Source: Amoebophrya sp. A120 (Eukaryota > Protista > Dinoflagellata). From it: 64,000 bases of DNA. The number at the start of each line of letters is the position of its first letter. Position 1 is the first letter of the stretch. The notes below the pieces were generated by a model. The model did not search any database and had not been told where the DNA came from. It was given only the letters and a program-made list of their open reading frames with translations. Below, one piece after another: positions 1 to 64,000 of the stretch. A program made the translations under genes and the position numbers. The stretch is from contig CAJINV010000002.1 in NCBI GenBank assembly GCA_905178155.1, positions 8,637,224 to 8,701,223 on the forward strand. The letters are read 5' to 3'.

Positions 1-2403
1 TTACACGGATCGACGTAGCAAAATACCTGGGGATCAACATCATGATAGGTTTGATTTATGATTTCTGATTCTTCATCATACATACTGAAGGTGAGTTTGC
101 AGCTGAAGTTTGTTGAGAAATGATTGAGCAAAACAAATTGAACTTCAAGCACTCCTACTGTTTGATGCCGTGTTTCTACGCTGGATTTTTTCCAGAAATT
201 TGTCAAATAATTCTCCGCAAAATGAAAAAAATCACACCTGCGCGCAGTTGGGGAAATTCAAACCGCCATGATTCCGATCGCTTTTCACGTCAGTCGATGG
301 ACACTCGCCATTCCAAATGTCCTCGCCCCAGTTTGCCTGCGGCATGTCCCACGCATTACAGAACGAGCCGAAATAGGGACTCAGCTCGATGACCTGGTCC
401 TCATTATCCGTCTCCGCGGTGGTAGACGCCGACTGCCCCGCGTTTGCACGATCTTCTCGACGAGTCTGGTGAGTTTGTAGCGCACTGTACGAGGACGAGG
501 ACGACATGGACGCTGAAAAATCATCGTTCGTGAGCGGCGGCACCTTGTCGTTCTGGCTTTTTTCCAAGGCCTTTGGCTGACCGAAAGTCGTGTCCCATTT
601 CACGACCAAGTTGTCTGGGATGGAAACTGACTGTTCTGTGCTAGAAGTAGTACCTCCTGCAGTAGATGCTGACCCCCCGGACGAGCTTCTGGTACCTGCA
701 TTCGACGAAGATGAAGAAGAACCTCCTTGTTCCACTGTTCCGTCGTACCCTTTCAGCTCGTGCTGCAAGTCCGTCGTCCGGTGGTCAGAGTAGGAGGAAA
801 CGTCCAACGGCAGGCGTGCGCGTATTTCTTCCCACGATAAGCAAGCGCAGTCACTGTCTCCGTAGTCGTACTTCACCTCGTTGCCGCCTACCACGAAAGA
901 CTCCTTCGTTTTGGGTTCGGCATTTAGCCCGCTGCTCGACTTTTTCAACAATCCGGATGGTGTGCCGTTCTTTTTGTTCTCCTTGACGACGTTGTTGTTT
1001 CTTATCCCGGGAACAGGAGAGGAATTTTGATCGGTTTGCTCCTGCATGCTGTCGACTTTCATGACACTGAGCGCGCCTTCCCCGGCATCCGCTGCTGGCT
1101 GCAGAGCACCGGTGTTCGTGAACAGCGCAGGAGGTTGCTGGGCCCCTGTAGTTCCTACCGCGACTGCGCCCGGAGCTGCAGTTCCTGCAGTGCCTATCAC
1201 CAGGGGCGGGCTCGTCGCCGGTGGGGCTGCTGCGGTGACAGGCACGTAAATGATCGGCGCTTGCTGCGGCAGAACACCATTATTTGCGCTCGTTGCGACG
1301 ACGTCCGAAGTTGCACTGGCAACAGTCGAGGACGTGGCCGAGCCGCGTTGCTGGATATCATCTACTTCTGGCTGCGGGGACGTCAACAACGCCCCATTTC
1401 CGAGATCCTTTCCGTTGACGACGATGGTGATGCGCTTGTTATCGTTGTTGTTCCTGTTTTCTTCGGAGCTTTCCTCCTGCTGTTGTTGACCACTGGATAT
1501 ATCATACCCGCTAGACAAAACTGCGTTATTTCCGACCTCGCCGCCTCCTTCTGGCTCGGACGAAGAGGCTGAGCCACTGGTGCTTGAAGGGATTCCGGAC
1601 GACCTGGTGATAATCGCCACAGTCGTTTTCCCCGCCTGGTCGTCTGCCGAAAATCTTTCCTTTTGCCGACCGACGTGCTGCTGTTGGTGTTCTTTCGCGA
1701 CCTCCAGAGCTGCAGTTGAGCTGCGAGGAGCAGATGGAGAAGCGGCTGCTGCTGCTGATACAACGTCACCTGCTCGAGTGGAACTACTAGTCGACGAGCT
1801 GTCGCTGTCGGGTGGTAAGTGCGAATCTTGAGGGTCTCCACTCTTGCTTTCTGATTCCCCGCGTCTTTCTCCACCATTTTGAACGACACTGCTTTCACCG
1901 GGTAAAATTGTTGTCGACGATTCATCTCCCGATAATTTCGTGGCTCCACTGGTGCCAGTTTCAGCAACTGCCCCTTTTCGTTTATTTTGTTTTTCCTGCA
2001 GTTCCCTATACCGAGCCTGGAGTTCGGCTGGACTAAGCTCGTCGAGCTTGTTCATTTTCTCCATGTGTGCGTTCAAAGAGGCGAGGGACATGCGCCGCTG
2101 AAATGCGCGCACTGTGAGGAGTTCGGACGGAGATGTTGAAATAAGCGTGAAGTAGAGAAAGAAGGACCACCAGCACGACCCGGTGCACAAAAACGCCCGC
2201 GAGGATAGTTCTTTGCAAGTGGAGGACGAACGTGGTGCTATTTCTCGTCGTCTTCTTGTACAACTTCGCGTCCTCGGCGGGGCTGGACGAAAACCTCCCG
2301 AGCTCGCGGCGACGTTCCTGGGACGGTCGTACTGAGTGGCGCCGCAAGCATTTTCCGCGAAGAAGACGCTCACGGGAGGCCGTTGTCGTTGTGCGTGCGG
2401 CAT
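1..2403 (-). CDS. Hypothetical low-complexity protein with N-terminal hydrophobic anchor and C-terminal Cys-rich (kringle-like) module; 3' end runs off the window. Exons 2403-238 and 26-<1
   Basis: Long ORF 232-2472 with first ATG at 2403 (MPHAQ); hydrophobic stretch FLCTGSCWWSFFLYFTLI. The ORF ends at a CAG|GTGTGA donor, and the CCCCAG acceptor at 27 continues in phase 0 as NCAQ|VFCYVDPC. Cys pattern DCAC...FGSFCNAWD...C...C..FCYVDPC. Start codon uncertain. Confidence 0.7.
27..237 (-). other. Canonical GT-AG intron (211 nt, phase 0)
   Basis: Minus-strand GTGTGA at 237 and CCCCAG ending at 27; AT-rich interior; splicing keeps the frame and completes the CYVDPC motif. Confidence 0.75.
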
Positions 2404-17735: not shown

Positions 17736-18700
17736 TGTCAATTTCGCTCCTGGTTGTAGTTACCTAGGTCACCAGCTCTGCCTCTTGCTCGTACTTCGAA
17801 TCAGTGTGCCTTTGCTGCTTGCCAATGAACATGACAACAGTTGCTTCGGGACTCAACGATGAAGCTACCACAGCACTTCTTGGCCTTGCCTTGGACTCCA
17901 ACATCGTTTTTGAGCGATGACGATCAACCTACACTCACAGAAACGCGCGTCGGCTGTCGTTTTCTTTTACGCGTCACTCGGCGAAAGAATTCTCGTCTCT
18001 CTAGCCATGTTTCCTCGATAAGACAGTCTAGTTCCGATAGCCTTTTCATTTCAAACAAAGACAGGAGGAGGAGGATCCTTCACACCTGTTTTTAGCTATA
18101 CATATTGCTACTCAAGTGGAACATGATGTCGCAGACCACCCGGAGGAAACGAGCAGGGAGGCACCGCTCTCAGGAGAAACACCTACTCGGCCAGCATTTG
18201 CTCCTGTTCCTTGTACCAGACGCGCCATGTTGCAACTACCACTCTTCGAGTTGCGGGCACTGAGGTACACTGTTGCAGCTTCTTCTCTTCGAGCCGCGGC
18301 CGGGTGCGCTCCGTCTGCTCACAAGCTTACCCTCTGTGGTGCGGCTGTCTACTCTGGGACGGTCCGGGGCTTGGGCGAGTTTAGGGTCATATCGGGCACC
18401 ATATGTGTTAGGTGCTTGTCCCTTAACTCTGTAGACACTGCGCTGCCTCCGCCCTGGAGCAGCTTGAGGCAGAGCTCACCTCCCGATTTTGTCACGATCA
18501 GGCGCTTCAAGGTGGTAGCATATTTGTCATGCTGCCACCTTCTCTCGGGTGGTTCTGGCCGGACCTTCGTCTCGTTCTACAAAGTCCACGTCTACGAATG
18601 CAAGACGCGAACTTTAGCTGCGCCCTAAAAATCTGAGATTCTTCCACTAGGCGGCTGCGCTGGATCGTGGGGAATTCTAATATGTATGGATCCGCACCTT

Positions 18701-18811
18701 GAATCGAGAAAAGATAGAGATACATCTGGAATCTCTATCAGAGAAAATCAATATCAGGATCTATCGACATCTCAGCAGCTCCTGGTCCAGATGTATATCT
18801 TTTCTTCATTC
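18701..18811. repeat. Degenerate inverted repeat / hairpin
   Basis: gaatcgagaaaagatagagatacatctgga (18701-18730) matches the reverse complement of 18786-18811 (gaatgaagaaaagatatacatctgga) with a 4-nt bulge. Confidence 0.55.
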
Positions 18812-26107: not shown

Positions 26108-27816
26108 CTTTGAAAACGTCAATGTTGTTAGGAACAATCTCCGCGATCGGTATCTATACTTGAGTATCAGGTCAGAAGAGATCAAGATAGGCAGAAAACA
26201 AAGATACGTCCATGATAGAGTCGTGTGGCCGAAGTCTTGAGGCTTTCGAACATTCTATACTTCTACACAAGATGCTCGTCGTGCGATTGTGAAGTAGCGC
26301 CGTAACATAAAAGATGACGCGCATCTTTCGGTCTCAAACATCTTTCTCGAATTCGGATCAATCTACACACAAACCGCTGTGGGTGGTGGTAGATAAAATG
26401 CTGCTCCTCTTGTAAACTGAAATTGAATGTGTCTTCCACTTCTCATCATGGTCAACGACGTGCCGACATCCTCAAATTGCGCAACACGCCTGATGAAGGC
26501 TGTTTACTACTGACTACGTAGACTTTCTGCGTTGCATGATTTTCGCTCATAGGCGGCGTGTGAGATGGCACTTTCTGTTGCTCCTTAACCTTATACTAGA
26601 CTCGTCTTCATCTCACGCATAAAATTTTGAAACACCACGCCACTCCGCTGCGACGAACAAGTTCCCGTACCAAAAAACACACAAACGCGTTGTCCGCCTT
26701 TTATTGCGTGCGGAAGTTGTGCCGACAAGCAACTAGTTATCTTTTTGCATGCATGCTACAACCGCTGTCCTTTTGACAAAATTCAACAAAAAAGAAATAA
26801 TCTCAATTGTGACCACATTCACACAAGCACAGTATTCTCGTAAATCGATCCATGTTGGCGGATGGAAACTTAATGTGCTTTGGCGGCAATTGTTTTTGCA
26901 GCAGCGATTTTCTACATTTGAGCACAAGATAAGGGTTCGTTTATTGCAGGAGTAGAACGGAAGAAGATCATTAAGACAGAGATTCACTTCGTACCAGCCA
27001 TACTAGTCCTAACGTAATTGCTTGCGTGACGAAAAAAAAGTATCTGTATTGACAAGAATGCTTGCATGTAATTGAGATGCATTGTAACGCTTGATGATAG
27101 TTGCTCTTGCTACTTAAAGAGGTATACTTTCTTTTTTAGTCAAGTATATTCGGTTGCCTCTTCTGGACATTCAGGCGCGTAGAGGGTCTAGACCTAGATC
27201 AAAGTTCAAAACGATCGGGCTTTTACATCCATACGACGATCAGAGCGATATTCTCTAGAGTGCACGTGAGGCAGGAAAGTTGTCGAATACAACATACTTG
27301 TAGTACCAGTCGTGATACCAATGTGGATTCAGCGCCTGCAGCACAGCAGGTGCCGCTATGATGATTTAAATCTGTTCGACTCTAAGCCTTAGATTGTCCC
27401 TTATCGACTCCTATTCTTCTACGTCCCTGGAGTCTCATTATAGCTTGAGTAGGTAGTTGTTGGCTTTGGAAAGACGCGGCGGAAGAAGTGCTGTCGTTTT
27501 GTGCTGTTTTTTGGGTGCCTTGCTGCACCCCTTTGGTTATTTGTCGCCAAAGATTCCGGTCGAGACAGTCGCGAACCGTTGCGCGCCTTTTGGTCACGTC
27601 TGCGTGAACTTCATGCAGCCAGGTGCCGCTATATTCTCAATCTCAACAACGCAACGAGAGAAACTAATTATAGCAGGAGCCCAGGCCTATTTTCCAATTT
27701 TTATGTACTTACTTTCCGAAGCTGTCCTTTTCTTTCCGTGTTGCATGCTAATTTTTCAAAAACTGTCCTATGTGTTATAGTACTTATTTCTATTGCATCC
27801 AAAACTGGCAACAGCA

Positions 27817-46141: not shown

Positions 46142-49100
46142 TTATTTTTTCCTGCTCAGCTCCACGTCTTTTTCTACTCTTTTCAGATACGCGGCTGCAA
46201 GTTTCGCGTTTCCCCGGTCGGCGGCTTCTTTGTACCTGCGATACAGCGGATGAGCTCGCAGCTCGTGGTCCTCGTTATCACCTTTTGGCTTTTCCGCTTT
46301 TTGGTGATTCGGCTCCTTCATCATCCCTTTCGAGGCGGCCTCTTTTTCTGTTTGCTTGTTTTCATGATGCTCTCCACGGTGCGGCAACGGTGCGGAATGC
46401 TCAGCGCTATTCTTTTCGTTTCCCGATCGCGCGACAACGTCTTTCTTCACTTTCCGCCCCGGCTGCACTTCGTTGCTCTCAGCTGAAGCTCCGGACGCTC
46501 CTTTTCTGTCCCGCTCAGCTTTGCGCATGTTGGACACCTCTGCCATGAGCGCGGCATTCCGTCCGAGAACCTCTCGCTTGGCATGCGCGTAGTGATTTTT
46601 TATCTCACCCGCATCTCCCTCATCCGCCCTACCACTTTTGCCACCCAAACCCATCGGCTTCAGATGCGGCGCGACGATGTGCTTTCTCGGCGCGGTAATA
46701 ACCTCCACAGCATTGGGGTTCAGCGACCCACGAATGTGGCGGTCCGGACTGATTTCGAACTGCAACCCCGGACTCAGTCTCGCCGTGTCCGCCTTGTGCT
46801 TCAGAATCTCCAGCTTGCGCCACTTCTGTGAGAACAGGGCCCGCAGACTCAGGTCTTTGCGGTCAAGGAATTCCAGTGCCTTATCCAGCTTTTTCTCTTC
46901 AGAATGTGATGGAACGCCGGCAGGTGGGGTTGCTCCGCTTGAATCCGGCCCTGTGTGCTCGTGATGGTCAGTGTGAGAAGTGCTGCCGTGATGCGTCTCA
47001 CTGTGCTGTTCTTTTATTTGATCATGATGACGATGGTGATGATGTCCGTGCTCTTGCAGTGGTCTATGGTGATGCGATTCGTGGCTGTGATGGTGCCCCG
47101 AATGAGACTTGTGTTGGTGATGTCCACTCTTCTGTGGCCTGGTGCGATTCCGAAAACGACCTGGGGGGGAGTTAGAATTTTGCAACTCCCTCGCCACGTC
47201 GTCGATCGCCGGTGGGGTGTTTTCCAATTGGCGAAGCCAGGCGTCCGTCTCCGCATTGTCGACTTCCTCCTGCCTTTCCGCTTCCAAGGCTTTGTTGCTC
47301 GTGAAGTCATCGTCTACATCGAACAAGTGCGGTTTCTGTCTCTCGTAGCGTCGCCACTTTTTTTCTGAATCGGCTAAGGCTGCCAAAATCTCTGTGCCCG
47401 TGGTTAGATTCCGCGGGACGTAGAGCGAGGGAGAGGTAGTGGTTGGTTGATACAGATGCGGGCTCGTTGGTTGTAGGCTCATGACCTGCAAGTTGTGATG
47501 CGGAGATGCAGCCATCATGGAAGCAAGTGCTCCTTCCTCGTCTTCCTCGTGCCGGTAGACTGGGACTAGTGCGTTCTGACTTCTTGTCTGGTTGCGCCGC
47601 CTTTCGCGCTCAATAGCCACCGCAGGATCATCCTCCGCGGACAGCGCCTTTATTCTCTGCTTCTGCGCCGATAATTCGGCACCTCTTGCTTCCATCAGCA
47701 TCTTTTGCAAATGCTTCGGAAAGATCCCTGCACGGCTACCGAACCACAGACTTTGACCGGAAAGGTAGAAATTACTCGGAGCGGTAAAAACTTCTTGCTG
47801 TCCCGCTGCGACAGTGTGGCTCGGTGGAGAGTTGTTCCTTTTGCCTCCAGAAGTCTTCAGTCCTTTACCCGTCGCGCCGCCGGTCAAAAACTCCATTTTG
47901 TCGTGGTCTTTCTGCACCAACGCCAAATGGTGCTGCTGGCTCGCTGCGTCGGCATTTTCGGTTTCGAACTCAAGAACCTCGTCGTGGTTTCCGTGCTCCG
48001 CTTCCAATCCCTCGAGTTTCAAGTGATGATCGTCCGCCACGACGCGCTGAAAGTGGCCCACCATGTCAAACACGACCTGCTTCCGCTTCTCCCCAGCTTT
48101 CATAAAGATGTCATCGAAGTCCTTCACAACAGTCAAACTTTTACTGTTGTGCAGATCCAAGCTGTTCTGCAGAACTTTATTTCCAGCAGTACTCGTTGCC
48201 GCCGCACTTCCACTGGTCCCACCTCCAAGCATCTCTGCAAGAACCAGCAAGACTAACCCGCGAATCACCTCGTCTACGTGGAAAGACTCCCAGAATTGCA
48301 CCGCTTTCCAAAGTTCCGCGAGCTGCGAAATGGAGAGGTTGAGTTGCAGCAGATTCAACAGCAAGAAGTCGCTCATTTTGTCGCACTCGTGCATCAGAAA
48401 ATGCTGGGCCTCAAGCAAATCTTCGAGCTCAATTTCCCGGTTGCGCCTTTCCTTGAGCGACTCCTGCCGCGAGGACCCTGTCTCGGTGTTGCCTGGTTTG
48501 GAGAAGTGAAACATCACACTGAAATGCTCGAGGAAGCTTTCGCGCTGTCTGGTACGCGGAGTGAGATTATCATGATCGATCATTTGTGGGGTCGCGTCAA
48601 CCTCAGCAGCCGCATCCTGTTGTTTGGACGGTGCACGCCGATCGGCAGGAGTGTGATCATGTCGGAGCTCCTGGTCCTCCAACTCGTCGTCATCGACGAT
48701 GTGCTCGTCCCACAGAAACTTTTCTTCTCTTGGGCCAGAAACTTCTTCTTCCTCAATCTCCAGGGAAACAGGCACTGGTTTCGCTTTTGGGGGCTTAGCT
48801 TTCAACGAATTCTCTTTCGCAGCATTATCCACCGCCTTCGTCTTTGCCAGCAAATCGTGAAGTTTTCTTGGTGCAGGTGCAGCCGGCTTCATGCCACTAT
48901 CTTGGTCAATGGTAGCTTCTTTCCGCTTTTGTGTCAGTCTCGCAGCCTTTTCCACCTCCGTGACACCAGCAACTGCTGGAGGCTCCTCAAATCGAATTGT
49001 CTTCTTTTCACCAGCGGGCTTAGCCTCTTCTTTGCCGGCCTTCATCTTAGCGGCCGAGCTGGCACTGCTTGTTTTGGTCGTGGTCCCTGCTGCATTCAGT

Positions 49101-52100
49101 GTTTTTTCTTCGCGATCTGTCGCAGCCTCACCACCGGTGGATTTTTTTTGTTCAACGCCTGCTCCGGAACTCACTCCTGCAACACTCGCAGTTGATGCTC
49201 CTCCTGCCGAACTAGGTCCGGCCGTATTTTCTCCAACCTTATTTCTCCTCCGCCCCAGCCGCGGACCCCTTGTACCAGTACCAGGAGCTGTAATCGGTGG
49301 CTTGTACCGAAATGGAAAAGCCGCCGTCTTCGTCTTAGAAGCTTCTTTTTGCGCCGTAGCAATTGTGGTAGTTGCCTTCGATCCCTGTGCAGCAGCTCCG
49401 GCAGGTGCAAGCGCTTTAGGAGCTCTCGCCGATTTATTCGTCATCGAATCAGCTACTGCAGCACTAACCGACGCAGGAGGTGGAGCGCCCCGCGGGCTAA
49501 TCTTCACTGACGAAACACCCACGACTTTCACGAGTACACCAGGAGTTGTACCGCGGCGTGAAGACGCATCGGACTCCGCAGCTGCCTTCTTCTCCCTCTT
49601 TGTCTTCACGATCTTCGTACTGCTGGTCTGCCCCGGTTCGGTTCCCGCTGCAATGGTGACGCTGAAGGTGGATTGGACGCTGGCAGCGAGCTCGTCCAGG
49701 TCGATACCTAGTTCTTCCTCTTCCTCCTCTTCCTCTTCGACGGTTTCAGGTACAGGCGCAAGACGAGCGGCAGCCTTTGCCTGTGCAACAGAAATAGGAG
49801 GCACAACGGCAGTTTTGATGATACTTGTGGTCTCAGTACCTGGTTTCTCTTGTCTCCTCTGATCACCGAGAGTCGCAGCAGTTGAAGTCCCTGCTTTTTC
49901 CAAAATTTCATCCAAATCCTCACCTGCACCTTCATCATCTTGCGCAGCCTTAGCTTCTTTCTCCCTAGCGGTTCTAGGAGAGGCTGCAAAAATTTCAATC
50001 GCGACAGGTTTCGTCACCGGCGCAACAGCAGTGCCTTCCTCCTTCGCAGATGAAACTAGAGCTAGCACAGGCTGCGTCGATGCAGTCGTCGTTTTAACCT
50101 TGACATCAGCGGCCTTCCCTGTCGCCTGCCCGATCAGAACATCCAAGTCTTCCCCGGGTTCAATGTCAACTGTTTCCGGCTGCCCTTGGTGATCCAAAAT
50201 GCGCACTTCGATCTGCGGAGTCGCACCATCGGCGTCCTCCTCTGCTCCTCGCCGCGGACTTGTGGCCGGCGACGCTATTTCTACTTCAACGATTGCGGGA
50301 TGATCCGGGGCTTGTGCAAAGGTATGCTGTTGACCTCCTTGTTGATCAAAAACACCAGCCTGCTGCCCGGGAGTTGAGGTGGACACCGTCACCTGAATAC
50401 TGGTCGCTGGCACTGCTGCCGCGATTTCGTCCAAATCCTCCCCTGCGTCCTCGACGTCCCCTGTCGCTTTTATTTGTTTATCCCGCGCACTTGCACCAGG
50501 CGACGCAATCTCGATCAAAACCCGGGGAGATGCCAACGCGTCTCCTGTGTCATCTCCCTCGTCAACATCTTTCTCTTTACCTCGGGGAGACACGACTGTT
50601 ACTGTCGTGACTTGCTGTCCAGGTTCGAAATCGTCTCCATCATCTTCCTCTTTCCGTCGAGGAGAAACGACTGTCACGGTGGTGACTTGCTCTCTAGCAT
50701 CGTCATCCTCTCCGCCGTCCTCCTGTCGCGGAGACTGCGAAACGGTGACTTTGACTTCCACACCCGACTCAGTCATCACAGTCGCCCCGGCGGCTTGTTC
50801 CGGTTGTGCAGATATTTCCTGTCTTTGGACAGCAGTCTGACCTTGGTCTGCTGTGTCCTCTGTTTTCACGGTGACTTTTACCACGGCGGAAGTTGGTTCC
50901 TCCTCCGCAGCTTCACGCGGACTGGCTCCTGCACCGCTTCGCGGACTAGCTGCCCCGCTTCGCGGACTGCCCGATGGAGAGGCAATGACGACTTTCACAG
51001 ATCGGGGAGAGGCAACACCTTCTTTTTTGGTTTTCTCATCCTCAGGCTTTTCCTCTCCGCCAGTTGTAAAAGCAAGAGCTGCAAGTGGAACGACGATGGT
51101 TGTGGTTTCATCTGGGCCGACCGATACTGCTTTAGCTTTACCAGCGCCTCCGGGTACCATTTTGCTGACGTCGATCACGGGTGGTGGAGCTGCTGCTCCT
51201 GTACCGGAACGACCACTATCCACTTTCACTTCAACTGTGACCTTTGCGGTAGCTGCATCCTTTCCCGCCGCGTCGATTGTTTCGCTAGCCTCCTCCGCCG
51301 GGGCTTCCATCAGCGCGAGCGGTGGAATGACCGGCTGCTTCGGTTCTTGAGGGTCCGCTGCGTTCGCAGCCGATGCGGAAGGTGGTGCGCCCGCTGCTGG
51401 ACCGACCTGAATGAAAACGGGCTCCGGCTGCTCTGAAGATGGGGCGTCAGAAGATACTGTTCCAGCGGGCTCTGGTTTTTGTCCTTCCTCCTCAACTTTG
51501 ACACTAACCACCACTTCCTCCGGTTTCGTAGCGTCTACAGAAACCTGCACGGAACGAGGGGAAAGTTGCTTTTGTGCGGACCGAGGGGAAGGCGGCTTTT
51601 GGATTTGTGCGCTGGTTGACTCCTCTGTCGTTCCTGCAACAACTTCGATGCCCACTTGAACCGAGCGAGGAGATTGCGGCTTCGCTTTCGCAGTTGCAGT
51701 CGCCTCTATCCCCCCGGTATCGGTAACTTGTACTTTTTCTTTTCCCGCCTCTCGCGGAGACGTTGTTTTAACAGTGACGAAAACTGCAGGCTGCTCCTGT
51801 GCAATTGTGGCATCTTTCGGCGCCGCCCTGGGCGAAACAGCTACTTGCACGATCCCGACCTGCGGCACCGTAGCCAGAGCTGCCGTGCCCGCTTCGGCTT
51901 TTTTTCTATCGACGAGGAGCGACTTGTCGCCCACGTGCACAACGATTGGCACTTTGAAAGGATCATCGTCGTCCATGTTCACTCGGTGCGTGAATCGCGG
52001 TGGCCCCTTTTCTGATTTTGTCGGCATCACTAAAAGGCTCTTCCCGCTGGCCCCACCCTTCAGCGCCGCCTTCCAGTTCGCAGGCAGGTCCCGTGACACG

Positions 52101-55100
52101 TCGATCTCCATCTTTCGCATCGCTTCCGATATGGTCACACCGCTGGAAGAAGTAGGACGTCTCACGAGTACATCAATCGGCCGCTTTTTCGTATCGGCCC
52201 CGTTCGTAATCAGAATCTCGGTGGCGAAATGCGCGTACTTTTCCTTCCCGACGAATTTGTCGTTCACGATGATCAATTTGTCCCCTGTCTTCAGCCCCAT
52301 CGCCGACGCCCAGGAGTTCGGTTTGATCTTTTGGATTTCGTTCACAACCGAACTGTCGGTCCGTAACTCCAGAATCCCGGTCGACTCGCCGTAATTCTCC
52401 ACGTCCGCGTCGGCGTTGATTTGCCCTTGCCAGTACTCATTGTCCGCGATTTTTCCCTTCAAGAACACAAAGGTCGCAATCTTCGGCTTACCCTGTTTAT
52501 GCCGATTGCCGACGAAGTTCAAGATCGCCTCGTTCGGGTCTTCTCCCTTCATTTTCATGACCATCGTGATTCTCTCCCCGCAAACGACCAAAAGCCAGTC
52601 CCCGACCGATAGGCCATATTTCTTCGGTCGCGAATTCGGGTGCCCAGTGTTGATTTTTGTCACTCTCACGATCGGAAAGTCGTCCCAGTTGACTGCAAAT
52701 TGAAAGGCTTCAAAAAACCGATCCTCAATTTTCTTCTTGCTTGTTGCGTCAAACACGCTCGCATCCTCGACGGAGCTCTGCTCCCAGCCGAATAAGCCGA
52801 CGGCCTTCAGATCGGATGCGGCGTACAGGAAACTGGGCAGAAACTGTGGCGGTTTCGCGGACTTCCGCTTCCCGTGTTTCCCGACCGCGAAAGGATCGGC
52901 ATCAGTCGGACGGACAAGCGCAATTTGGGGACCGCTGTCGGGGGAAACCAGGACTTTGTCTTGCTGCTTCACTGGTGGACTGCCTGCCGGATCCGCTGCA
53001 CTAGCACTAGGCTCTTCCGCTTCTTCCTCTTGCACAACAGTCATTATGCCAACCTGCGCGGCACCAGAGTCCTTCTTTATTTCTGGCACGGCAAGCTGCA
53101 CACCACTAGCACCTACTGACGTGGCCCCCGCTTTCGTTTTGTCCACCGCCAGAGACGCGTCTCCAACATGCACTACAGGCACCTTGAACGGATCGTCATC
53201 GTCCATATTCACTCTGTGCGTGAACCTCGGTGGCCCCTTCTCTGACTTCGTCGGTAGCAACAGACTCGCCTTCCCACTCCCGCCACTTTTCAACGCCGCC
53301 TTCCAAGGGGCGGGTAAGTCCCGCGCCACGTCGATCTCCGTTTTCCGCATTTTCGCCGTGATCTTCCCGATCTTCCGCCGCACCAAGAGATCGATCGGCC
53401 GCTTTTTCAAATCCGCGCCGTTCGTGATCAAGATTTCCGTTGCGAAGTGCGCATACTTTTCCTTCGCGACAAATTTGTCGTTGACTATCACCAAGCGGTC
53501 CCCGATCTCCAGGCCCATCGCCTCCGCCCAGGAGTTTTCCTTGATCTTCTGAATTTCGTTCACCACCGTGCTGTCCGTGCGTAACTCCAAGATCCCGGTC
53601 TGCTCGCCAAAATCCTCGACATCCCCGTCCGCGTTGATTTGCCCCTGCCAATACTCGTCGTCCGCGATTTTTCCCTTCAGAAACACGAAACTCGCAATCT
53701 TCGGCTTCTGCTGTTTGTGCCGGTTGCCGACGAAATTCAAGATCGCGTCATTCGGATCTACTCCCTTCATTTTCATGACCATGGTAATTCTCTCCCCGCA
53801 AACCACTAAAAGCCAATCCCCAACCGCCAAGCCGTACTTCGTCGGCCGCGAGCTCGCGGAGTTGTCAACTTTTGTCACCTTCACGATCGGAAAATCGTCC
53901 CAGTTCACGTTGAATTGAAAGGCCTCGAAGAAGCGGTCTTGGGCGGATTTCTTGCTGGTACTACTGCCATCAAACACGCTGGCGTCCTGCACGGAGGTTT
54001 GCTCCCACCCGAACAGTCCGACAGCCTTCAAATCGGAGGAGGCGAAAAGAAAACTGGGGAGAAATTGCGGCGGTTTTGCAGCCTTTCTTTTTCCCGACTT
54101 GCTCACCGCAAAGGGGTCTGCGTCCGTCGGACGGACTAGCGTCACTTTCGGGCCGCTGTCAGGGGTGTAAAGAACTTTGTCCTTCTTTGGTTTCGGGGAT
54201 GCGGTGTGGTCGACGTCATCTTTCCTTCCTTCTTCCACAGTACTCACAGTGAGCGTGAGCGCAGCAGAAGCCGCAGTCTCAGGACCAGCATCCGACGAAA
54301 TTCCGACCTGCGCTGCACTACTTGGAGCTACCTTCAGTTGCACGGAGGGAGCCGAGGCGGCTTTCTCTTTGTCTACCATTAAAGACGAGTCCCCGACGTG
54401 GACAGTTGGGACTTTGAAAGGGTCATCGTCGTCCATATTCACCCGGTGCGTGAATCTCGGTGGCCCTTTCTCCGATTTTGTCGGCAAGAATAGCGTCGCT
54501 TTCCCACTCCCCCCACTCTTCAGCGCTGCTTTCCAAGGCGCGGGTAAATCTCGCGCCACGTCAATTTCGGTCTTTCGCATGGCGGCAGAAATTTTCCCGT
54601 TGTACCGCCGGACGAGCAAGTCAATCGGGCGCTTTTTTGTGTCCTTACCGTTTGTGATCAAAATTTCCGTCGCGAAATGCGCGTATTTCTCCTTCGCGAC
54701 AAATTTGTCGTTCACGATGATCAACTTGTCGCCGACCCGCAGCCCCATGTTTTCTGCCCAGGAATTCGCCTCGATTTTCCGGATCTCGTTGATGCAATTG
54801 TGCCCTTCGTTCCGCAACTCCAAGATCCCAGTGCCCTCCCCGAAGGCCTCGACGTCCGCGTCACCGTTGATTTGCCCTTGCCAGTACTCATTCTCCGCAA
54901 TATCCTTCTTCAAAAACACGAAGCTCGCAATTTTCGATTTCCCCTTGGCCTGCTTGTCACCGACGAAGTTCAGAATTGCGTCGTTCGGGTCCGCTCCTTT
55001 CATCTTCATCACCATGGTCATTCTCTCTCCGCAAACGACGAGAAGCCAGTCCCCAACGTTCAAGCCGTACTTCTTGGGTCGGGAATTCGGGGCTGTTGTG

Positions 55101-58100
55101 TCGACTTTAGTGACTTTCACGATGGGGAACTCGTCCCAGTTCACGTTGAACTGAAACGCTTCGAAAAACCGGTCCTCCGGCTTCTTCTTCGATTTCGGAT
55201 CGAACACGCTCGCATCGTCCACCGGCGTCTGCTCCCAGCCGAACAGCCCGACCGCTTTCAGGTCGGAGGACGCGAAGAGAAAGCTCGGGAGAAACTGGGG
55301 TGGCTTGGCCGCCTTGCGCTTCCCACTTTTCGCAACCGCAAAAGGGTCCGCGTCCGTCGGCCGGACCAGCGTCACCTTGGGACCGGCGTCGGGCGTGTAC
55401 AGAACCTTATCCTTCAGCTGAATCACAGGCGGCGAAAAGGATTCCGCGGCAGCACCCCCCGCCCCTGCGGCTCCCGGAATCGCAAGAGAAACCGGCCCGG
55501 CATTGGTTTTGTCTTTCAGCAACGAAGTATCCCCCACGTGCACGATCGGAATCTTAAACGGATCGTCGTCGTCCATGTTTACTCGGTGCGTGAATCTTGG
55601 CGGCCCCTTTTCACTTTTCGTCGGCAGCGCCAGCATGCTCTTGCCCCCGCCCGGTTTCATGGCGGCCACCCAAGCGGGGGGCAGTTTCCGGGTAACGTCA
55701 ATCTCCATTTTCCGCATTTTCTCCGGGATCTTCCCCCCGACCCGGCGCACCAACAGCTCGATGGGCCGCTTCGAGGCGTCTTTCCCGTTGGTGATCAGAA
55801 CGTCCTGCGCGATGTTCGCGTACTTCTCTTTCGCCACAAACTTGTCGTTCACGATCAGCAACCGGTCTCCCTTCTGCAGGAACATCGCACTCGCCCAGCT
55901 GTTTTTCTCGATCACGTCAATCTCGCTGAAAACGCCAGCAGCGGGGTCGTTTCGGAAGGAAACGAACCCCGTCCCCTCGCCGTAATGTTCCACGTCCTTC
56001 GCACCGTTGATCTGGCCCTGCCAGTATTCATTCTCCGCGAGTTTCCCGTTCAAAAAGACAAACGACCCGATCTTTGATTTCTGTTTCTTGTACTGTCCGC
56101 CGATGTAGGCCAGAATCGCGTCGTGCGGGTCGACGCCCTTCAGCTTGACCACCATGGAGATCCGCTCTCCCACGAAGCAAATAAGCCAATCGCCGACGTC
56201 CACGTTGTATCGCCTCGGGAAGCAGTTCGGGTCTTCGCTGATCTTCTTCACCTTGACCACCGGAAAGTCCGTCCAGTCACAGCAAAAGCCGAACGCAGAC
56301 AGGAACCGGTCCTCCGGCTTGGTGGTTTTGGGGTCTGCCGGCTGGTCGAACACAGTTGGGTCGTTGATGGCACTTGGCGTCAGCTCCCACCCCACCACAC
56401 CGACGGCCTTCAGATCCGAGGTCGAAATCAGCAGCGACGGCAAAAACGGAGGGTCTTTCGCGGCTTTGCGCTTCCCCTTTTCACTGGTAGTGAATAAGTC
56501 GCCGTCGCTGGGCTTCACCAGAAACGTCTTTGGCCCGCTCTCGGGTGTGATCAGAAGTTTTGGCACCGGCGGCGGTGAGGGTGGGGCATCTTCCTCAGCT
56601 GTGGCCCCGCCAGGAGCTTTGCTTTTAGCGGGCGATGGCGTTCCTTTCGCGGTACTAGCCTTAGCTCTTTCCTTCGCCGTCGCAGGAGTCGCTGGTGCGG
56701 CTTTCTTCGCCGCTTTTGCTTTTGGCGCAGCAGCCCCTGCGGCGGCTGCTGGTGGTGGGACCTTGGCTGCGGACTTGCTCTGACTTTTTGCAGCTGCAGG
56801 TGGGGAAATGGTCACAGCTGCTTCTGCTGGTTTTGCCTTCGCCGGCGAGGGCGCAGGTGCTGGTGGTGGGGCTGCAGGCTTTACATCAACAACAGCGGGC
56901 ATAGAAGGAGGTTTCTCTTTTACCTCGACAGTACGCGTCGCCTCTTGCACAGGAGGCGGAGGAGATTTTGCCGCCTCTTTCTCACCTCCTCCATCCCCAC
57001 CTCTGCTGCCCTCTACTCCGCGCAGTGATTGCAGCCAAGCATTCCACTTGCCCGGGAAGTCTCGTTTTGTGTCGACTGCAAACTGCAAACTTGCATCGGC
57101 AAACGCTTCTTCTCTCTTCACCAGAATGTGCAACGGCTGCGCACAGCTTGCGGTTCTCAGTTTATCGTCGATTTTTGCCGGATCCTTCTCGCGCAGCGCG
57201 TCGTGGGCAACTACGATGCGGTCATCCTTGCGCAACCCTATTTGCCCCGCAGTCGACCCCGGCTCCACACGATTTACCACTTTGCCGTTCTCAACTTTCC
57301 AACCAAAGGCCTCCTGGTCAGGCTCCGTCAGTTCCAGCTGCAGATAGAACTTTTCGTATTTTGCCCGTAGAAACAGAAACCCCGCGACCGGGTTGTCTTT
57401 GCGATTGAATTTCCGCTTGATTTTTTCCACGATCGCATCGTCCGGGTTTTCCCCGCCGTTCTCCTGCTCTGCCGCGTTTTGCAGCACTGTGATCCGCTCC
57501 GTCAACGTTCCCACCATCAGCATGATATCGTCCACCTTCACGTTGTTTTTCACCGTGCGCGCCTCCGGGTCCGCGTCATTGACCTTCGAGACACGGACCA
57601 CCGGGTAGTCCCTCCAATTCAACTCCATGCCGAAGAGCTTCCAGATTTTTTCTTTTGGCGTCAGGGAACTATCCGTCAGGCAATCGCCGTCGATACTGCT
57701 CTGCCGCCAGCCGGTTAGCCCGTAGGACTTCAAATCCTTGCAGAGTCCGAGCAACTGTTGCAGGTACGGAGGTGGCGAGGCATTATTTGCTGTGTTTTTT
57801 CTGTTCTGCCCCCGTGCGATGATGCCAGTCAGTGTCGCCGTGCCCAGCGAGCCCGCACCGTGTTGCTCCCGCGCCTCCGCAGCAGCGACAGACAACCCCG
57901 TCAACGACTGGGAGCCCGTGCGTCCTACCGCTTCACTCTTCCCGGCCGCCGTTCCCAATTCGAGCGAGCCCGGCATCGTGGTGGTGCCCGCTGACGGAAC
58001 ACTCCCGCTGCCGTCGACCTTGGTCAGTGACTGGGTTCCATCATTTCCGAACGGCGACGGCCGCGAGACGTCGACCTCTTCGGCGAACGTCAGATCCGTG

Positions 58101-61100
58101 TGATTCCCCGACTCCCGCTTCACGAGAATGTGAAGTTTGAAATTGTCGTTTTGCCGGCTCTCCAAAAACTTCTGCACCAACTTCTGGATCTCCGCGGCGT
58201 TTTTTTCGCGAATGAACGACTCGTTAGTCTCGAAATCGTGCGCCACCACGATGCGGTCTTCCTTCTGCAAACCGAATCTATTCGCCGCCAGGCCGCCCGG
58301 ATCGATACTGACAATTTTCGCCGCTTCCGTCTCCATTTTTAGCACGTCGGCACCCGTAGAGCTGGCATCAGAAATCAGTTTAGCGCCGCAGAGTTCCAGC
58401 TGACAGTACCGCTTCTCGTACTTGGCGCGCAGAAACGCAAACCCCGCCACCGGGTTGTCCTTCCGGGCCGCGCGACTTTGCACCTTCTTCAGAATCACCT
58501 CTTCGAACGACTTACAGTGTCTGTAGTCCGGCGCGGTGACCCAGGACCCGATCGATGTGACGCGGTCCTTCAGCGTGACACAGGCAATCATTACATCGTT
58601 GACGCACACGTTGTTCTTCGCCGCGCGCGACGGCTGCCCGTCCCCAGTCTCGCGGTCGACCTGGAGGACACGCACTACCGGGTAGTGACTCCAATCTAGC
58701 TCGATCGCGAACAGCTTGCGGAATTTCTCCTTGGGGTCAAGACTCGCATCGCTCAACAGCTCTTTGTCGATGCTCGACTGCGCCCAGCCGGTGACGCCGG
58801 CGCTTGAAAGGTCCTTGAAGAACGAGAGCAGCTGCTTCAAATACGGCGTGGCGGAGGAGCTGGCTCCTGGCGGGGCGAAGAGGAAAACTGATGAAGAAGA
58901 AGGGTTCTTGCGGTGGATCTTAAAAGTTGTAGGAGGGTCGTCATGTGATGTGGAACCTTGATTGTCTTTCTCTTTGTCGTCCGGAATACAGAGCGTCGTT
59001 GATGCCCTTGGCTCCACACTAGCGACTAGTTCGTCCAGGTCGACCCCACGATGAAGGTCCGCGAAAACAATTTCGTCCATCCGCGGTACCGAGCAGTTAG
59101 ACATCAGGGGAAGTAGAGCGGCATTTCCATCGAACTCGTCATGAACTTCTTCCCTCGCAGCCTCGAGTTCCGCTAGAAAGTCGTCCCCGCCTCCGGATAA
59201 CAGTTCTTCGGAGTCAACAACTTCTTCTGCCTCACTTGTGTGGCCGAAAAAGGCGTCCTGATCCTCCTCCAGGTCGTCGGCCGAGCTCGACGTTGTATTT
59301 GCTAGTACGTCAGGACCGATAAAACTTGGACTACTACTGGTACTGCTTCGCGTGTCGTGGCTCCTAGCACTACTTCCCTCATCATCGCTTATGATCCCGT
59401 GATCATCTTGCTCTGGATAAAACAGCAAAGGACCGCCCGCTGCTCGCCCACTAGCGCCGTCAAGGGGGACCTGTTGATCGCTTGCACTTGCAGCAGCCAC
59501 CCGGCCACCAAACTGCGCCCAACCTTTTCTGTTCTTTTTTCCAGCCTCGTCCGCTTTTGCTGCTTCTGGCAGATATTGGTAGTTACCACGGGGATCATCC
59601 ATGATCTCGTGTTGCTCCACTACTCCCCCACCCTGCTTGCTTTTCCTTTCGTCTTCCAGCAACATCAGTTCGATCTCGTCCTCTAGCTCCTGTTCGAGCA
59701 GTTCGTGTTCCTTCCGCACCTCCGTCATTTCCTCCGCCTTCATAGCAAAGTATCCTGTGCAAAGTATCGCACTCGTAGTAATTGCAGTCATGCACTACAA
59801 ATCTCGTTCCCAAGGCAAATCAGCACGGCAAATTGCATTTGCCATGCTGAGGAAATTTGTAATCCAACTCATACTATTACGATGCAGCTTTTGCAGTTCA
59901 TACAAAGTTTTTCGCTACGATTTTGGTCAACCCCGCAAAGCTCCCCCGCATGGCGGCCGCGTGCTCCTTCACCTCGCGGCTCGCTTCCGCGTTCTGCACC
60001 GCGCGGTGGTGCAAGACCGTTGTCAGACCGTGGAACTGCTCCCGCATCGCCTGCTTGTGCTTCGCCTCGTTTTCCACCCGCAGCTGCTCCTGCCGCTTCC
60101 GCTCCTCCTCCGCCGCCCGCGTGTGCAGGCTCACCTTGTGCGCCAGGATGGTCGCCAGCCCCTTGGACAGCGTTTTGGTGCCCGTGGACGGCAAAGTCGC
60201 CTGGCGCACCTTGTGCGCCATGATTTTCGCCAGAATGTTCAGCGACTTCGTGCCCGTCGAGGGCTTAGTGCGCGTTTTCACCTTGTGCGCCAGTATGGTG
60301 GCAATGCCCGTCCAGTCGTTCGAGGCTGTGGAGAGATGCTTATGTAACTCGTCGTCCTCCTCCGTGATGTGGTGTAAGTGTTTCAAGTAAAAATGGAACT
60401 CCGCGGGCCCTAACTCGAAGAAAGCGTTGAAGAAGTGCCGCACGTCCTTTGCAAGGGTGTGCCGCAACTCGTTCGGACGAGTTTTTGATGAAGTAGTAGA
60501 TCCTGCGCCGTCAACGGTGGAGGACTTGTTTTCTTCTTCATCCAGCAGGAGGAGTCCCGCGAGCTTCTTCTCCAGATCGGCATGAAAGTCGCCCAGACGT
60601 TCCACAGCGACCTGCAGGGGCACATCCTGCAGACGAATCGCCGAAGACGACGAGCCTGCTTTACCAGGCGGCCCCGGAGCACTTGTTCCTACGGCTGCTC
60701 TTCTTGCATGCGGCCAACCTTTTGGGCTCGGGGAATAGGACTCTGGAAAGAACAAAACGCCACCAGAAGTGATGCGATCGGATAGTTCAGACTCTTCGGC
60801 GGGTCGTAGTTGCAACGCGTTGGAACTACGTGATATTCCGAGAGCGGACGGAGATATAATTCGGTGCTCATCGAAATCGCCGACGTTATTTTCCGGCAGG
60901 GACGATAGGAACATTGACTCGTCAGGAGAGTGTGAGTGTCCTCCGGGCGAGCGCTTCAAGTAGGTCGTGGTATCTGGGCGATTGGCCGCCGCCTCCTGCT
61001 TCAGCCGGTTTATTTTCCGTACTGGCGTCGCGTAGGCCGTCGAACTGGGAGCAACACCTGGAGTGGTTTGTTCTCTCGAATTCCGTCTTCTCGGCGGCGA

Positions 61101-61298
61101 GAAGCGGTCGTGGCTTTCGATATGCTTCCTGTCGTGTCGTGAGGCCGCACTACGGGTTGTAAACGGCACACCATGTGTAGCTGTCGTAGTTGCTCTTTCC
61201 TGTCTTTCCCGTAAGGTCTGCACTGTCATGTTCCCCCGAGCGTGCGGTGGCATCGCCGGAGTCGTTCGGCCGCGGCGCGGGGGCGTGAAGTGCTGCAT
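46142..61298 (-). CDS. Giant ~4999-aa scaffold protein with six tandem double-PDZ-like modules, V/T/E-rich SPR-motif region and His-rich C-terminus. Exons 61298-59904 and 59746-46142
   Basis: ORFs 59898-61298 and 46142-59791 join in frame (KIVAKNF|AMKAEE) after removing a 157-nt introner. PDZ-like signatures GLNVGDWLLVVCGE, IEANSWAENMGLRVGDKLIIVNDKFV, VEPGSTAGQIGLRKDDRIVV. Confidence 0.85.
51925..56560 (-). repeat. Four intragenic ~1.0-kb coding repeats (~340 aa each)
   Basis: Units at ~56560-55530, 55410-54390, 54180-53160 and 52960-51925, each ending PTKSEKGPPRFTHRVNMDDDDPFK(I/V)P..HVGD. Two more divergent units at ~58860-58060 and ~57770-57050. Confidence 0.9.
59751..59902. mobile_element. 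Inverted-repeat introner (non-canonical hairpin intron), 152 nt, 5-nt target-site duplication
   Basis: Flanked by caaag at 59746-59750 and 59903-59907. Ends tatcctgtgcaaa / ttttgcagttcata; imperfect full-length foldback with central tcagcacggcaaat-tgc-atttgccatgctga. Removing 157 nt restores the frame. Confidence 0.85.
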
Positions 61299-62155
61299 GG
61301 TGGTGTCCGATGAAGCGATGAAAACTTGTTCTTGGCTTCAACACAACCTGATTGAAGTGAGCAGTAGCAAGCGTTGGTGGCACATCTTTAGTCGCTGCCG
61401 CGGCGGCAAGAGGAGTAAAACAACGGCAGCTGCATACGCACACCAGAAATTGACACGACCTAAACGGCCTACTTCTACACGTATGTATTTATTTCCTGAA
61501 GGTGCTGGCTCCGAAAAGGCAAATTTTGGAACGACTATCAAGCCCAAGTACTTACCCCAAGCCCACGCGTGTACGACAATTTTGATCATCAATTTGATTT
61601 TCACGGATACCACTTCAAATACGAATGAAGACGATGTTGACATACGACATGCGATACTGGCAGTGAAAACGTCCACGAGCTGACGATCTTTGGTTCACGA
61701 TCCTTCGAAGGAGGTTGTTGTTCACCGTGACGTTTATAGCGATCAGATGGCGCATCACAGGTGCACGAGAAAACACGACAGGTGGCTGCGATTACCAGAG
61801 AACATTCATAGCGCCGATTGTTGCATTTCTCCGATGACAGAGACAGACTCAGAAAGACCGGATAGATTTTTCCATCAGTAAAACTAAAAGCGAACACCAG
61901 TCACACACTGTCACATATCAAGTCGCGACCGCCCTTTCCGACAGGCTTCTGCATCAGCGTGCGTTGCGCTAGTACCACTGCGCGTTGCAGACCTAGATCT
62001 TCAGGAGCATGTACATGATAGAAAGATGCATGTGCGTGATGTCGCGTCGTCGTAACCGTATATTTTGTGCTACTTCCCGAAAAAGCAGGACCGCCAAAAA
62101 CAAAGTGATAAAAAGTAGTTGTAGTGATGCCGCCAGGGCGAAATGAAGATTCCAC

Positions 62156-63226
62156 TCAACCTACATTCATCATTTTCGCTACTACGGCCTCTTTCAACGC
62201 TTCTCGCATCAGGCATTGGTACTCGTGCACGTCGGCTCGTGCCAGATCAAGCAGGTTGGGGAGCGTTGATATCCTCTTCTCGGAAGAAGTGTTTACTGCG
62301 AGGACATTTTTACTCTGCTGATGCTCTAGAAAGGCAACAGAGCCGGCCACTTCCGCATACAGGATGCTGCCACCACTTGAACTTGTTCGCGTCATATGCT
62401 TGTTCGAACGGTTTTCAGCTGCGCCAGAACCGCTCGTAGATGCCTTCGGTGTAGTAGTCAACATATCCTTCTCGAGCTGCTGGGTACTACAAGCACTTGA
62501 CGTTGCATTTCCACTTGCCTCGGCAACATCAAGGCCTTCTTCTGCATCACTGCAGCGAGATGAAAACCTCACCGCCAAGGCACAGGCCGACATCCCCACC
62601 AGACCCCGCAACTTTACGCCAGCGTCGGCAAGCGCGAGGCAGGCGGCCATCGTCGCAGCTGAGGCTGTCAAGGACAAGGGATTCGGGTTTGCTGTTCTGG
62701 CTACAAGTGCTTCTCCCGGAGAACAATCAGTAGACGAAGTAGCACTACATGATGGACCGCTGCTTCCGGAAATTTTTGTAGTGGAGCCTTTACTTGTGTA
62801 AAAACCGCTCGTCCCGCTGCCTTGCTGCAACACGACGATATCCAGCATAATGGAGCCGGAGACTTGCTCGCTTTCCGGGCTTTCCAAAGTCTGCAACAAA
62901 ACGGATTCCACAGTTTGCTTCAGCCGGTCGATCCACTGGCGCCGGTGCTTCGGCTTACTGGTTTGTTGGTGTAGTTCCTGGGTAGTGGAACTTAGAGCAC
63001 CAGAGGCAGCAGTCGTTGAGCCAGTTGCGTCGAAAAAGCCGCGCACGTTCAGATCCAGCACGCCGCGACGATCCCGCCGTCCGCGGTGCAGCACGAGAAT
63101 CTTTTCGTGTTCCAGCTCGACGTACCCGGACCCGAAACACGGCATACCACCGTCGGCGCCCGGGTGGCAAGAGGCGCGAAAAAGCGCATGTGGTCGCGGT
63201 GGTCGTGTTGGAGTTGTAGTAGCCAT
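62156..63226 (-). CDS. Exosome complex RNase PH-like subunit (RRP41/MTR3 family), divergent
   Basis: GSGYVELEHEKILV, LKQTVESVLL, IMLDIVVLQQGSG, AATMAACLALADAGVKLRGLV and the terminal helix LLDLARADVHEYQCLMREAL follow the RNase PH fold pattern. Paralogue identity not resolvable by eye. Confidence 0.8.
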   Translation of the reverse strand: MATTTPTRPPRPHALFRASCHPGADGGMPCFGSGYVELEHEKILVLHRGRRDRRGVLDLNVRGFFDATGSTTAASGALSSTTQELHQQTSKPKHRRQWIDRLKQTVESVLLQTLESPESEQVSGSIMLDIVVLQQGSGTSGFYTSKGSTTKISGSSGPSCSATSSTDCSPGEALVARTANPNPLSLTASAATMAACLALADAGVKLRGLVGMSACALAVRFSSRCSDAEEGLDVAEASGNATSSACSTQQLEKDMLTTTPKASTSGSGAAENRSNKHMTRTSSSGGSILYAEVAGSVAFLEHQQSKNVLAVNTSSEKRISTLPNLLDLARADVHEYQCLMREALKEAVVAKMMNVG

Positions 63227-64000
63227 TCTTTCACTTTTTGGAACGCTACTTGTTCACTGCTGGTCCTCAGGCTCGTCCAGCTCTAGATGATAAATTGAAA
63301 TGCTTTCATCAAAATGAAAAAACACTACCGGTTATGCGTCAAATAACCCTTCAAATATTTTTCTACCTCGCGTAGCAGGCTGGATGTGGTTCTCCTGGGT
63401 GTTCGTTGTTATAGTCGCGATATGGCGCTACAGCTACGTGTATGATCGTTCATTTTGATGTATCCAGCAAATGGGGATCCACACCCACAATATGGTTTGA
63501 CGTTGATTTCCACAATGATCTTTTTTTCTGGTGAGCAGAATCAATGTGTATGCGTGGATCTCAGGTGAAATTTTCGATCTCGATTAAAACCAAATGAAGA
63601 GCACACGTCAAAGATCAGAACCTTATATCAGTTTCGAGTCGCGGGTATGAGCGCAAATCGTCCACGGAATACACATATTGAACTTGTTTGCCTCGTCCTC
63701 ACAGACCAAACTACCACACATCAAAGATCTTTCACGTACACGATCGGACCTCAATTCAAGAACGCTTCCGAAAGCAGCGCGTTACTCTCTCCTCAGATTC
63801 CGCTTCACTATCTTCATGACAGTTTCACTGTGATGATTGGCTCTTTCTTTTCCCGGCTTAGTTCTTGGAGTTTGCTTCCGTGCTAGTTGATTTACGTATC
63901 GAAAACTGGCTTGAGCTGTAGCAGTTAAAGCTAAACAGTCACACAGTCGTTGGCTATGTAGTATCATCGTCAAATTATTTGTGTTTGTTGTCGTACATGA

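What the first reader, a model, noticed from the sequence alone, without database searches (positions are those of the whole stretch)
59746..59907. Older full-hairpin introner that must ignore a decoy AG
Seen: 152-nt foldback with a caaag TSD and the same TAT-N7-AAA termini as the 16.1-kb element but an unrelated interior and degenerate arms. The in-frame intron is GT..TT (59903-59747). A good-looking TTTGCACAG acceptor 8 nt earlier would give GAT ACT TTG CTA TGA, an immediate stop. In both introners a GT donor arises from TSD plus terminus and the next exon starts with G. Inference: the 3' site is set by structure or the direct repeat rather than AG; use of the decoy would give a ~470-aa short isoform instead of ~5000 aa, a potential splice switch.
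Basis: partly seen in the sequence, partly recalled or inferred. Interest (0 to 1): 0.8.

Follow-up and report, generated by a model that had tools for sequence, protein, structure and literature searches.

The report
Known Amoebophrya introner skipping its AG
A 152-base hairpin-shaped repeat of an already published class sits inside one giant gene of a marine parasite, and a related parasite's protein lines up without a gap only if exactly 157 bases are removed, so the cell likely cuts at a non-standard site and passes over a normal-looking splice signal that is simply part of the repeat's end.

Summary
The element is real: 59751-59902, TAT-N7-AAA ends, 5-nt direct repeat, significant hairpin, large repeat family. 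It matches the published Amoebophrya A120 introner class (PMC7789003), which this scan also noted before in many other windows of the same genome. New here: one Amoebophrya AT5 protein matches both flanking ORFs, so this was one gene. So the AG at 59755 is likely passed over. But it is part of the element's terminal repeat, seen in other family members, so it is not a special switch. Using it gives 469 aa against 466 aa for plain retention. The GT..NN|G rule is largely an artefact of the direct repeat: seven registers give the same mRNA. No RNA read or contig covered the junction, so splicing here is inferred. Gene fission by spliced-leader addition at that AG (in-frame ATG 11 nt later) is not excluded. 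Ordinary member of a known class; a usable test case for an open splicing mechanism.

The parts
59751..59902 (-). Introner / MITE-like element, 152 nt, TAT-N7-AAA termini, full-length imperfect hairpin, member of a large repeat family
   Evidence: contig depth 14,400-190,040 over most of it against 42.5-43.1 in the flanks (summed contig depth, not a copy number)
59903..59907 (-). 5' copy of the 5-nt direct repeat (target-site duplication); its last G plus the terminal TAT gives a GT donor-like site
   Evidence: sequence
59746..59750 (-). 3' copy of the direct repeat
   Evidence: sequence
59747..59903 (-). Inferred 157-nt intron (GT..TT register; one of seven registers that give the same mRNA)
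   Evidence: not shown by RNA
59755..59756 (-). 'Decoy' AG inside the 3' terminal repeat; out of frame with the 59903 donor; predicted unpaired in a 4x4 internal loop
   Evidence: same terminus in 2 of 5 loose-end consensus rows at 59761
59795..59796 (-). Internal AG, in frame with the 59903 donor (109-nt intron); a variant of this copy, buried in the stem
   Evidence: 97% of family depth has another base at 59795; P(unpaired) 0.0
59820..59850 (-). Inner 14-bp stem holding the 11-nt motif shared with the 16.1-kb element; one compensatory pair (59828/59842) against the family majority
59904..61298 (-). Upstream coding exon (465 codons before the junction; 466 aa if unspliced)
   Evidence: BLASTP to P0001 residues 46-305, 47% identity, E 1e-64
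46142..59746 (-). Downstream coding exon of a giant repeat protein with weak PDZ-like hits; in-frame ATG at 59743 (4533 aa)

Best explanation
A copy of a high-copy inverted-repeat element sits in a coding exon between two 5-base direct repeats, and it is likely removed from the RNA together with one repeat (157 nt), which would restore a 4999-residue protein. The 3' cut is likely set by a fixed distance from the paired element ends rather than by scanning for AG; the register one base before and four bases after the element (GT..TT here) is the likeliest, but the sequence cannot fix it. The AG at 59755 is the element's own terminal repeat read backwards and is likely passed over routinely. The machinery is most likely a relaxed major spliceosome. 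Shown: anatomy, family, one-gene ancestry, gap-free homology for 157 nt. Inferred: splicing of this copy, the register, the machinery.
For: Termini and repeat match the published A120 introner description exactly. 1079 of 264,029 contigs of DNA-holding run X1 and 2232 of 805,576 of X3 lie on the stretch, nearly all on the element, with unlike flanks at its end. P0001 (Amoebophrya AT5 g7086.t1) matches the upstream ORF (E 1e-64) and the downstream ORF to its C-terminus. Of 501 distinct in-frame junction peptides the top five are all 157-nt removals; precise removal scores 92 without a gap, against 72 (166 nt GT-AG) and 66 (109 nt GT-AG) with gaps; with the donor fixed at 59903 the score peaks at 157 nt. 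The gene's own preceding repeat unit has the same spacing. All 9 commonest A120 non-canonical site pairs have T as second base, with G, C, A or T first, as a cut one base before TAT predicts. U2AF35, U2AF65, SF1, SLU7 and Prp18 are listed for A120; U1 snRNA was not detected.
Against: No RNA read or contig covers the junction. Homology shows the ancestral state, not today's splicing. One other 157-nt register, AA..AG at 59911-59755, which uses the decoy AG with a non-GT 5' end, scores 93 against 92, so homology alone does not exclude use of that AG. P0001 is a single predicted gene model. The paper says splice sites are variable relative to the hairpin, and its site table may reflect how the aligner places ambiguous junctions. 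The decoy is predicted unpaired (0.90-0.94), so simple masking by structure does not explain why it is skipped. The largest loose-end row (121 contigs, X1) has a terminus without this AG.
Confidence: 0.72

Rival explanations
1. Same precise 157-nt removal, but by a spliceosome-independent, structure-guided activity like that proposed for euglenid nonconventional introns (a rival for the machinery only; it overlaps the best explanation on the outcome).
For: Full-length hairpin joins the ends; the GT..TT register fits pyrimidine|purine at both ends, as reviewed for euglenids; U1 snRNA not detected in A120.
Against: The euglenid CAG/CTG pairing at +4..6 / -8..-6 is absent (sequence); nearly all spliceosomal proteins are present; pyrimidine|purine is not a rule in the A120 site table.
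Confidence: 0.2
2. Ordinary GT-AG splicing from the 59903 donor to an in-frame AG (59795 or 59738), giving a protein with 16 extra or 3 missing residues.
For: Both keep the frame (5015 and 4996 aa); the donor looks canonical; 15% of canonical A120 introns carry such repeats.
Against: Both break the gap-free match to P0001 (scores 66 and 72 against 92); the 59795 AG is absent from 97% of family depth and is buried in the stem; both still require the 59755 or other AGs to be skipped or ignored.
Confidence: 0.08
3. The insertion split the gene: the 466-aa part ends at the element's first stop and the 4533-aa part is made by spliced-leader addition at the 59755 AG.
For: An in-frame ATG follows that AG after 11 nt; the AG is predicted exposed; leader motifs were found on at least 37.8% of A120 transcripts.
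Against: One AT5 protein covers both parts; precise removal restores a repeat unit that spans the junction; neither separate protein is in the protein collection by exact look-up, though only 1 of 10 window proteins looked up was, so this is weak.
Confidence: 0.07
4. The decoy AG is used at a regulated, sizeable rate as a switch between a 469-aa and a 4999-aa protein.
For: Canonical-looking donor and acceptor 149 nt apart; decoy exposed.
Against: No reads; the AG is a terminus feature seen in other family members; the product differs from the retained-intron product (466 aa) by only a few terminal residues, so the AG adds nothing that retention would not give.
Confidence: 0.06
5. The element is not removed and the gene is a disrupted allele.
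For: No RNA coverage of this gene in the three RNA-like contig sets that do hold family copies (no test).
Against: The 4533-codon frame is intact; about 22 stops would be expected if it had drifted as far as the element differs from its family majority (an upper-side estimate, as some differences may be inherited from a subfamily).
Confidence: 0.03

Closest known systems
Introner elements / non-canonical introns of Amoebophrya sp. A120 (Farhat et al. 2021, PMC7789003; read: abstract, sections 5, 10, 11, 12, 16, 32, 35, passages, supplement passages incl. Table S4, S6 and S7 rows; figures not seen)
   Same: TAT + 7 nt + AAA inverted-repeat start, 3-5-nt direct repeat at the borders, hairpin, repeated family, co-oriented gene block, splice sites other than GT-AG.
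   Different: Nothing in kind. The searched text has no treatment of an AG inside the terminal repeat being skipped; GT-TT is not among the nine commonest site pairs listed.
MITE-derived introners of Micromonas, Aureococcus, Polarella and others (PMC12130899 passages; PMC11282704 passages; PMC9860276 and 10.1101/2020.10.14.339549 search listing only)
   Same: Non-autonomous TIR element with target-site duplication that becomes an intron; a splice site can be lent by the duplication.
   Different: Micromonas/Aureococcus elements are described with canonical splicing motifs; here the required 3' end is not AG.
Nonconventional introns of euglenids (PMC11282704 passages)
   Same: End-joining hairpin, repeat at junctions, likely MITE origin, non-canonical ends.
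   Different: CAG/CTG pairing motif absent; different lineage; circular excision product untested here.
Non-canonical introns of Fritillaria (PMC13326754, abstract only)
   Same: A model for a spliceosome that accepts non-AG 3' ends.
   Different: There divergent U2AF paralogues do it; one gene each for U2AF35 and U2AF65 is listed for A120, and their divergence was not tested.

Membership tests
Amoebophrya A120 introner element | Inverted-repeat motif starting TAT, seven free bases, at least three A | tested here: met
   both ends
Amoebophrya A120 introner element | Direct repeat of 3-5 nt at the exon/intron borders | tested here: met
   perfect 5 nt (6 with the terminal A)
Amoebophrya A120 introner element | 8-20-nt inverted repeat joining the ends | tested here: met
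   imperfect: 9 of 14 terminal bases, continued by a full-length hairpin
Amoebophrya A120 introner element | Repeated in the genome | tested here: met
   many contigs with unlike flanks at the element's end
Amoebophrya A120 introner element | Junction supported by at least 3 RNA reads, non GT-AG | tested here: inconclusive
   0 reads laid from X4-X6; no flank coverage in X7-X9; indirect support from homology
MITE (non-autonomous TIR transposon) | Short, TIR, target-site duplication, high copy, no coding capacity | tested here: met
MITE (non-autonomous TIR transposon) | Cognate transposase in the genome | not testable with these tools
   no genome held; the paper found none in A120
Canonical U2 intron | GT 5' end | tested here: met
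   possible in 1 of 7 equivalent registers
Canonical U2 intron | AG 3' end at the cut that restores the ancestral protein | tested here: not met
   no GT..AG pair among the 157-nt registers
Euglenid nonconventional intron | Pyrimidine|purine at both junctions | tested here: inconclusive
   fits in the GT..TT register only; register not fixed
Euglenid nonconventional intron | CAG at +4..6 pairing with CTG at -8..-6 | tested here: not met
   sequence against the definition
Euglenid nonconventional intron | Released as a full-length circle, no lariat | not testable with these tools
   needs RNA experiments

The most novel reading that the evidence does not exclude
The terminal repeat of a whole subset of these introners carries a built-in AG that serves two routes: passed over in cis-splicing, but used as a spliced-leader acceptor. 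At this locus that would switch between a 4999-aa protein and a 4533-aa form lacking the N-terminal domain, so a transposon would split or re-join genes at the RNA level.
Probability: 0.07. Interest if true: 0.75.

Novelty: already known. Interest (0 to 1): 0.25.

Why it matters
How Amoebophrya removes tens of thousands of non GT-AG introns is an open question. This copy offers a canonical-looking donor and acceptor whose joint use would destroy a conserved protein, so it is a clean natural test that the 3' end is not chosen by AG. Because the AG comes with the terminal repeat, the test can be run on many copies at once. The element itself is not new.

Tried and rejected
No whole genome held, so no genome-wide test of any register rule. 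No RNA holder listed. Raw RNA runs X4-X6 laid 0 reads on 56000-64000 (no test). RNA-like contigs X7-X9 hold family copies (27, 21 and 11 records laid, some of them at 60066-60120 rather than on the element) but do not cover the exon flanks; no joints. The 16-nt terminus pattern in metagenome contigs gave 120 loci, none aligning over more than 30 nt: chance hits. Word-index protein searches found nothing for the 571-aa protein or for residues 18-700 of the downstream ORF among proteins of 2502-7963 aa; the search of longer proteins found only P0001. P0002 (E 9e-4) is a low-complexity chance match and was dropped. No Rfam match. The idea that this copy's changes spare the hairpin on the transcribed strand (loss 3.9 against 12.7 kcal/mol on the other strand) was not significant: 7% of 1500 random sets reach that asymmetry. 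The GT..NN|G rule was rejected as forced by the repeat. Paper searches and a term search in the main paper showed no treatment of a skipped AG in these elements; the library is incomplete and the supplement's figures S19-S25 were not visible. No earlier scan note near this place, on this sequence, or on a decoy AG.

Full report
Observation. On the minus strand a 152-nt element (59902-59751) lies between two copies of a 5-nt repeat, with TAT-N7-AAA at each end. It folds back over its length (-53.6 kcal/mol, z -3.84, 1 of 200 shuffles as good) and is A+T-richer than its flanks (41% G+C against 65% and 54%). Its terminal 14 bases match at only 9 places, which a loose scan does not separate from chance (6 candidates, 5.41 expected). 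It interrupts two long minus-strand frames, 466 aa upstream and about 4550 codons downstream.

What it is. The end motif and the direct repeat are those published for introners of Amoebophrya A120. The long frames of the window lie on one strand, as in that paper's co-oriented blocks. The only credible protein relative found is from Amoebophrya AT5. The element is a repeat: in run X1, 1079 of 264,029 contigs were laid on 601 bases, with summed depth from 24,658 to 190,040 in the bins over 59751-59876 (14,400 at the lowest listed position) against about 43 in the flanks (not a copy number). Loose ends at 59750-59761 have unlike flanks. Likeness of the laid parts was 17 / 182 / 372 / 508 for 99+, 95-99, 90-95 and under 90%, and the six longest relatives shown differ at 16-21 places over about 107-125 nt. 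This copy differs from an 85% or higher family majority at 7 places and lacks one base of the 3' terminal repeat. So it is a diverged copy; whether it is older than the 16.1-kb element rests only on arm identity (51 of 81 against 47 of 61).

One gene. P0001 (2162 aa, a predicted model) matches the upstream frame (47% identity, E 1e-64) and the downstream frame from its first repeats to its C-terminus. I scored 501 distinct in-frame junction peptides against P0001. The five best are all 157-nt removals. Precise removal of element plus one repeat aligns over 37 residues without a gap (score 92). Against my reading, a 157-nt register from 59911 to the decoy AG scores 93, so homology fixes the length, not the register; that register would not restore the pre-insertion sequence and needs an AA 5' end. 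The downstream frame is intact where about 22 stops would be expected under drift, so it is under selection.

The decoy. Donor 59903 with the AG at 59755 gives 469 aa; no splicing gives 466 aa. The AG is the terminal repeat read backwards. The same terminus ends the loose-end consensus at 59761 in 2 of 5 rows (X3, X7), not in the other three, including the largest; the 16.1-kb element carries it at the end that would be 3' in the opposite orientation. It is predicted to sit unpaired in a 4x4 loop, so it is not hidden. The internal in-frame AG at 59795 is a variant of this copy (97% of family depth differs) and is fully paired. I infer that AGs in and near these elements are passed over as a rule and that this locus is not a special switch.

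The GT..NN|G rule. Seven registers give the same mRNA here and six at 16.1 kb. If the intron is started at a G of the left repeat, the next exon must start with the matching G of the right repeat. At 16.1 kb the GT register has a different offset from the element; the offset used here (one base before, four after) reads TT..AG, which is among the nine commonest A120 pairs. All nine have T second and only three start with GT. This fits a fixed offset better than a G rule, with the caveat that aligner placement may shape that table and that the paper calls the sites variable. The 'one plus four' wording comes from earlier unreviewed notes of this scan on other windows; I could test only compatibility.

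Mechanism. Most likely a relaxed major spliceosome measuring from the paired ends: nearly all spliceosomal proteins are reported, U1 snRNA was not detected, and the 3'-site factors are listed. A non-spliceosomal route as in euglenids is the main alternative. Neither is shown.

Not tested. RNA gave no test. Gene fission by leader addition at 59755 remains possible because an in-frame ATG follows after 11 nt and leader addition is common in this organism.

Verdict. A real, ordinary member of a published class, seen before by this scan in other windows of the genome (40 notes fit). Added value: homology support for AG-independent precise removal at one locus and a clear list of junction forms to count. 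Interest 0.25.

Noticed in passing
window 16145-16260: Second A120-type element, 116 nt, 5-nt repeat, fold z -8.12; a 121-nt removal extends the frame from 176 to 333 aa, while the only GT..AG pair in the range scanned (122 nt) gives 187 aa.
   Followed up: partly
window 16185-16195, 16217-16227, 59823-59833, 59837-59847: An 11-nt internal motif is shared by both elements (direct repeat in one, inverted in the other); the family majority at 59826 and 59828 makes the 59823-59833 copy exact. A possible transposase or splicing-factor site.
   Followed up: partly
window 18522-18532: A third exact copy of that motif with no clear element ends nearby; a short inverted repeat at 18701-18811 lies close.
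   Followed up: partly
window 59828 and 59842: Compensatory pair against the family majority (G-C here, A-U in 94-97% of depth), suggesting a subfamily or hairpin repair.
   Followed up: partly
window 59745-59768: A 10-nt repeat spaced 14 nt apart (terminal repeat plus target duplication) allows an alternative closing stem.
   Followed up: no
window 46142-61298: The host gene would encode a 4999-aa protein with many internal repeats and weak PDZ-like hits; its AT5 relative has 2162 aa. Function not examined.
   Followed up: partly
window 24392-26254: The 571-aa frame holds a stretch that recalls an E2F/DP DNA-binding motif (recalled, no Pfam hit, no homologue found).
   Followed up: partly
whole window: Only two clear introners in 64 kb and three frames of about 3000-4500 codons without a break, far fewer elements than earlier notes report for other windows of this genome.
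   Followed up: no
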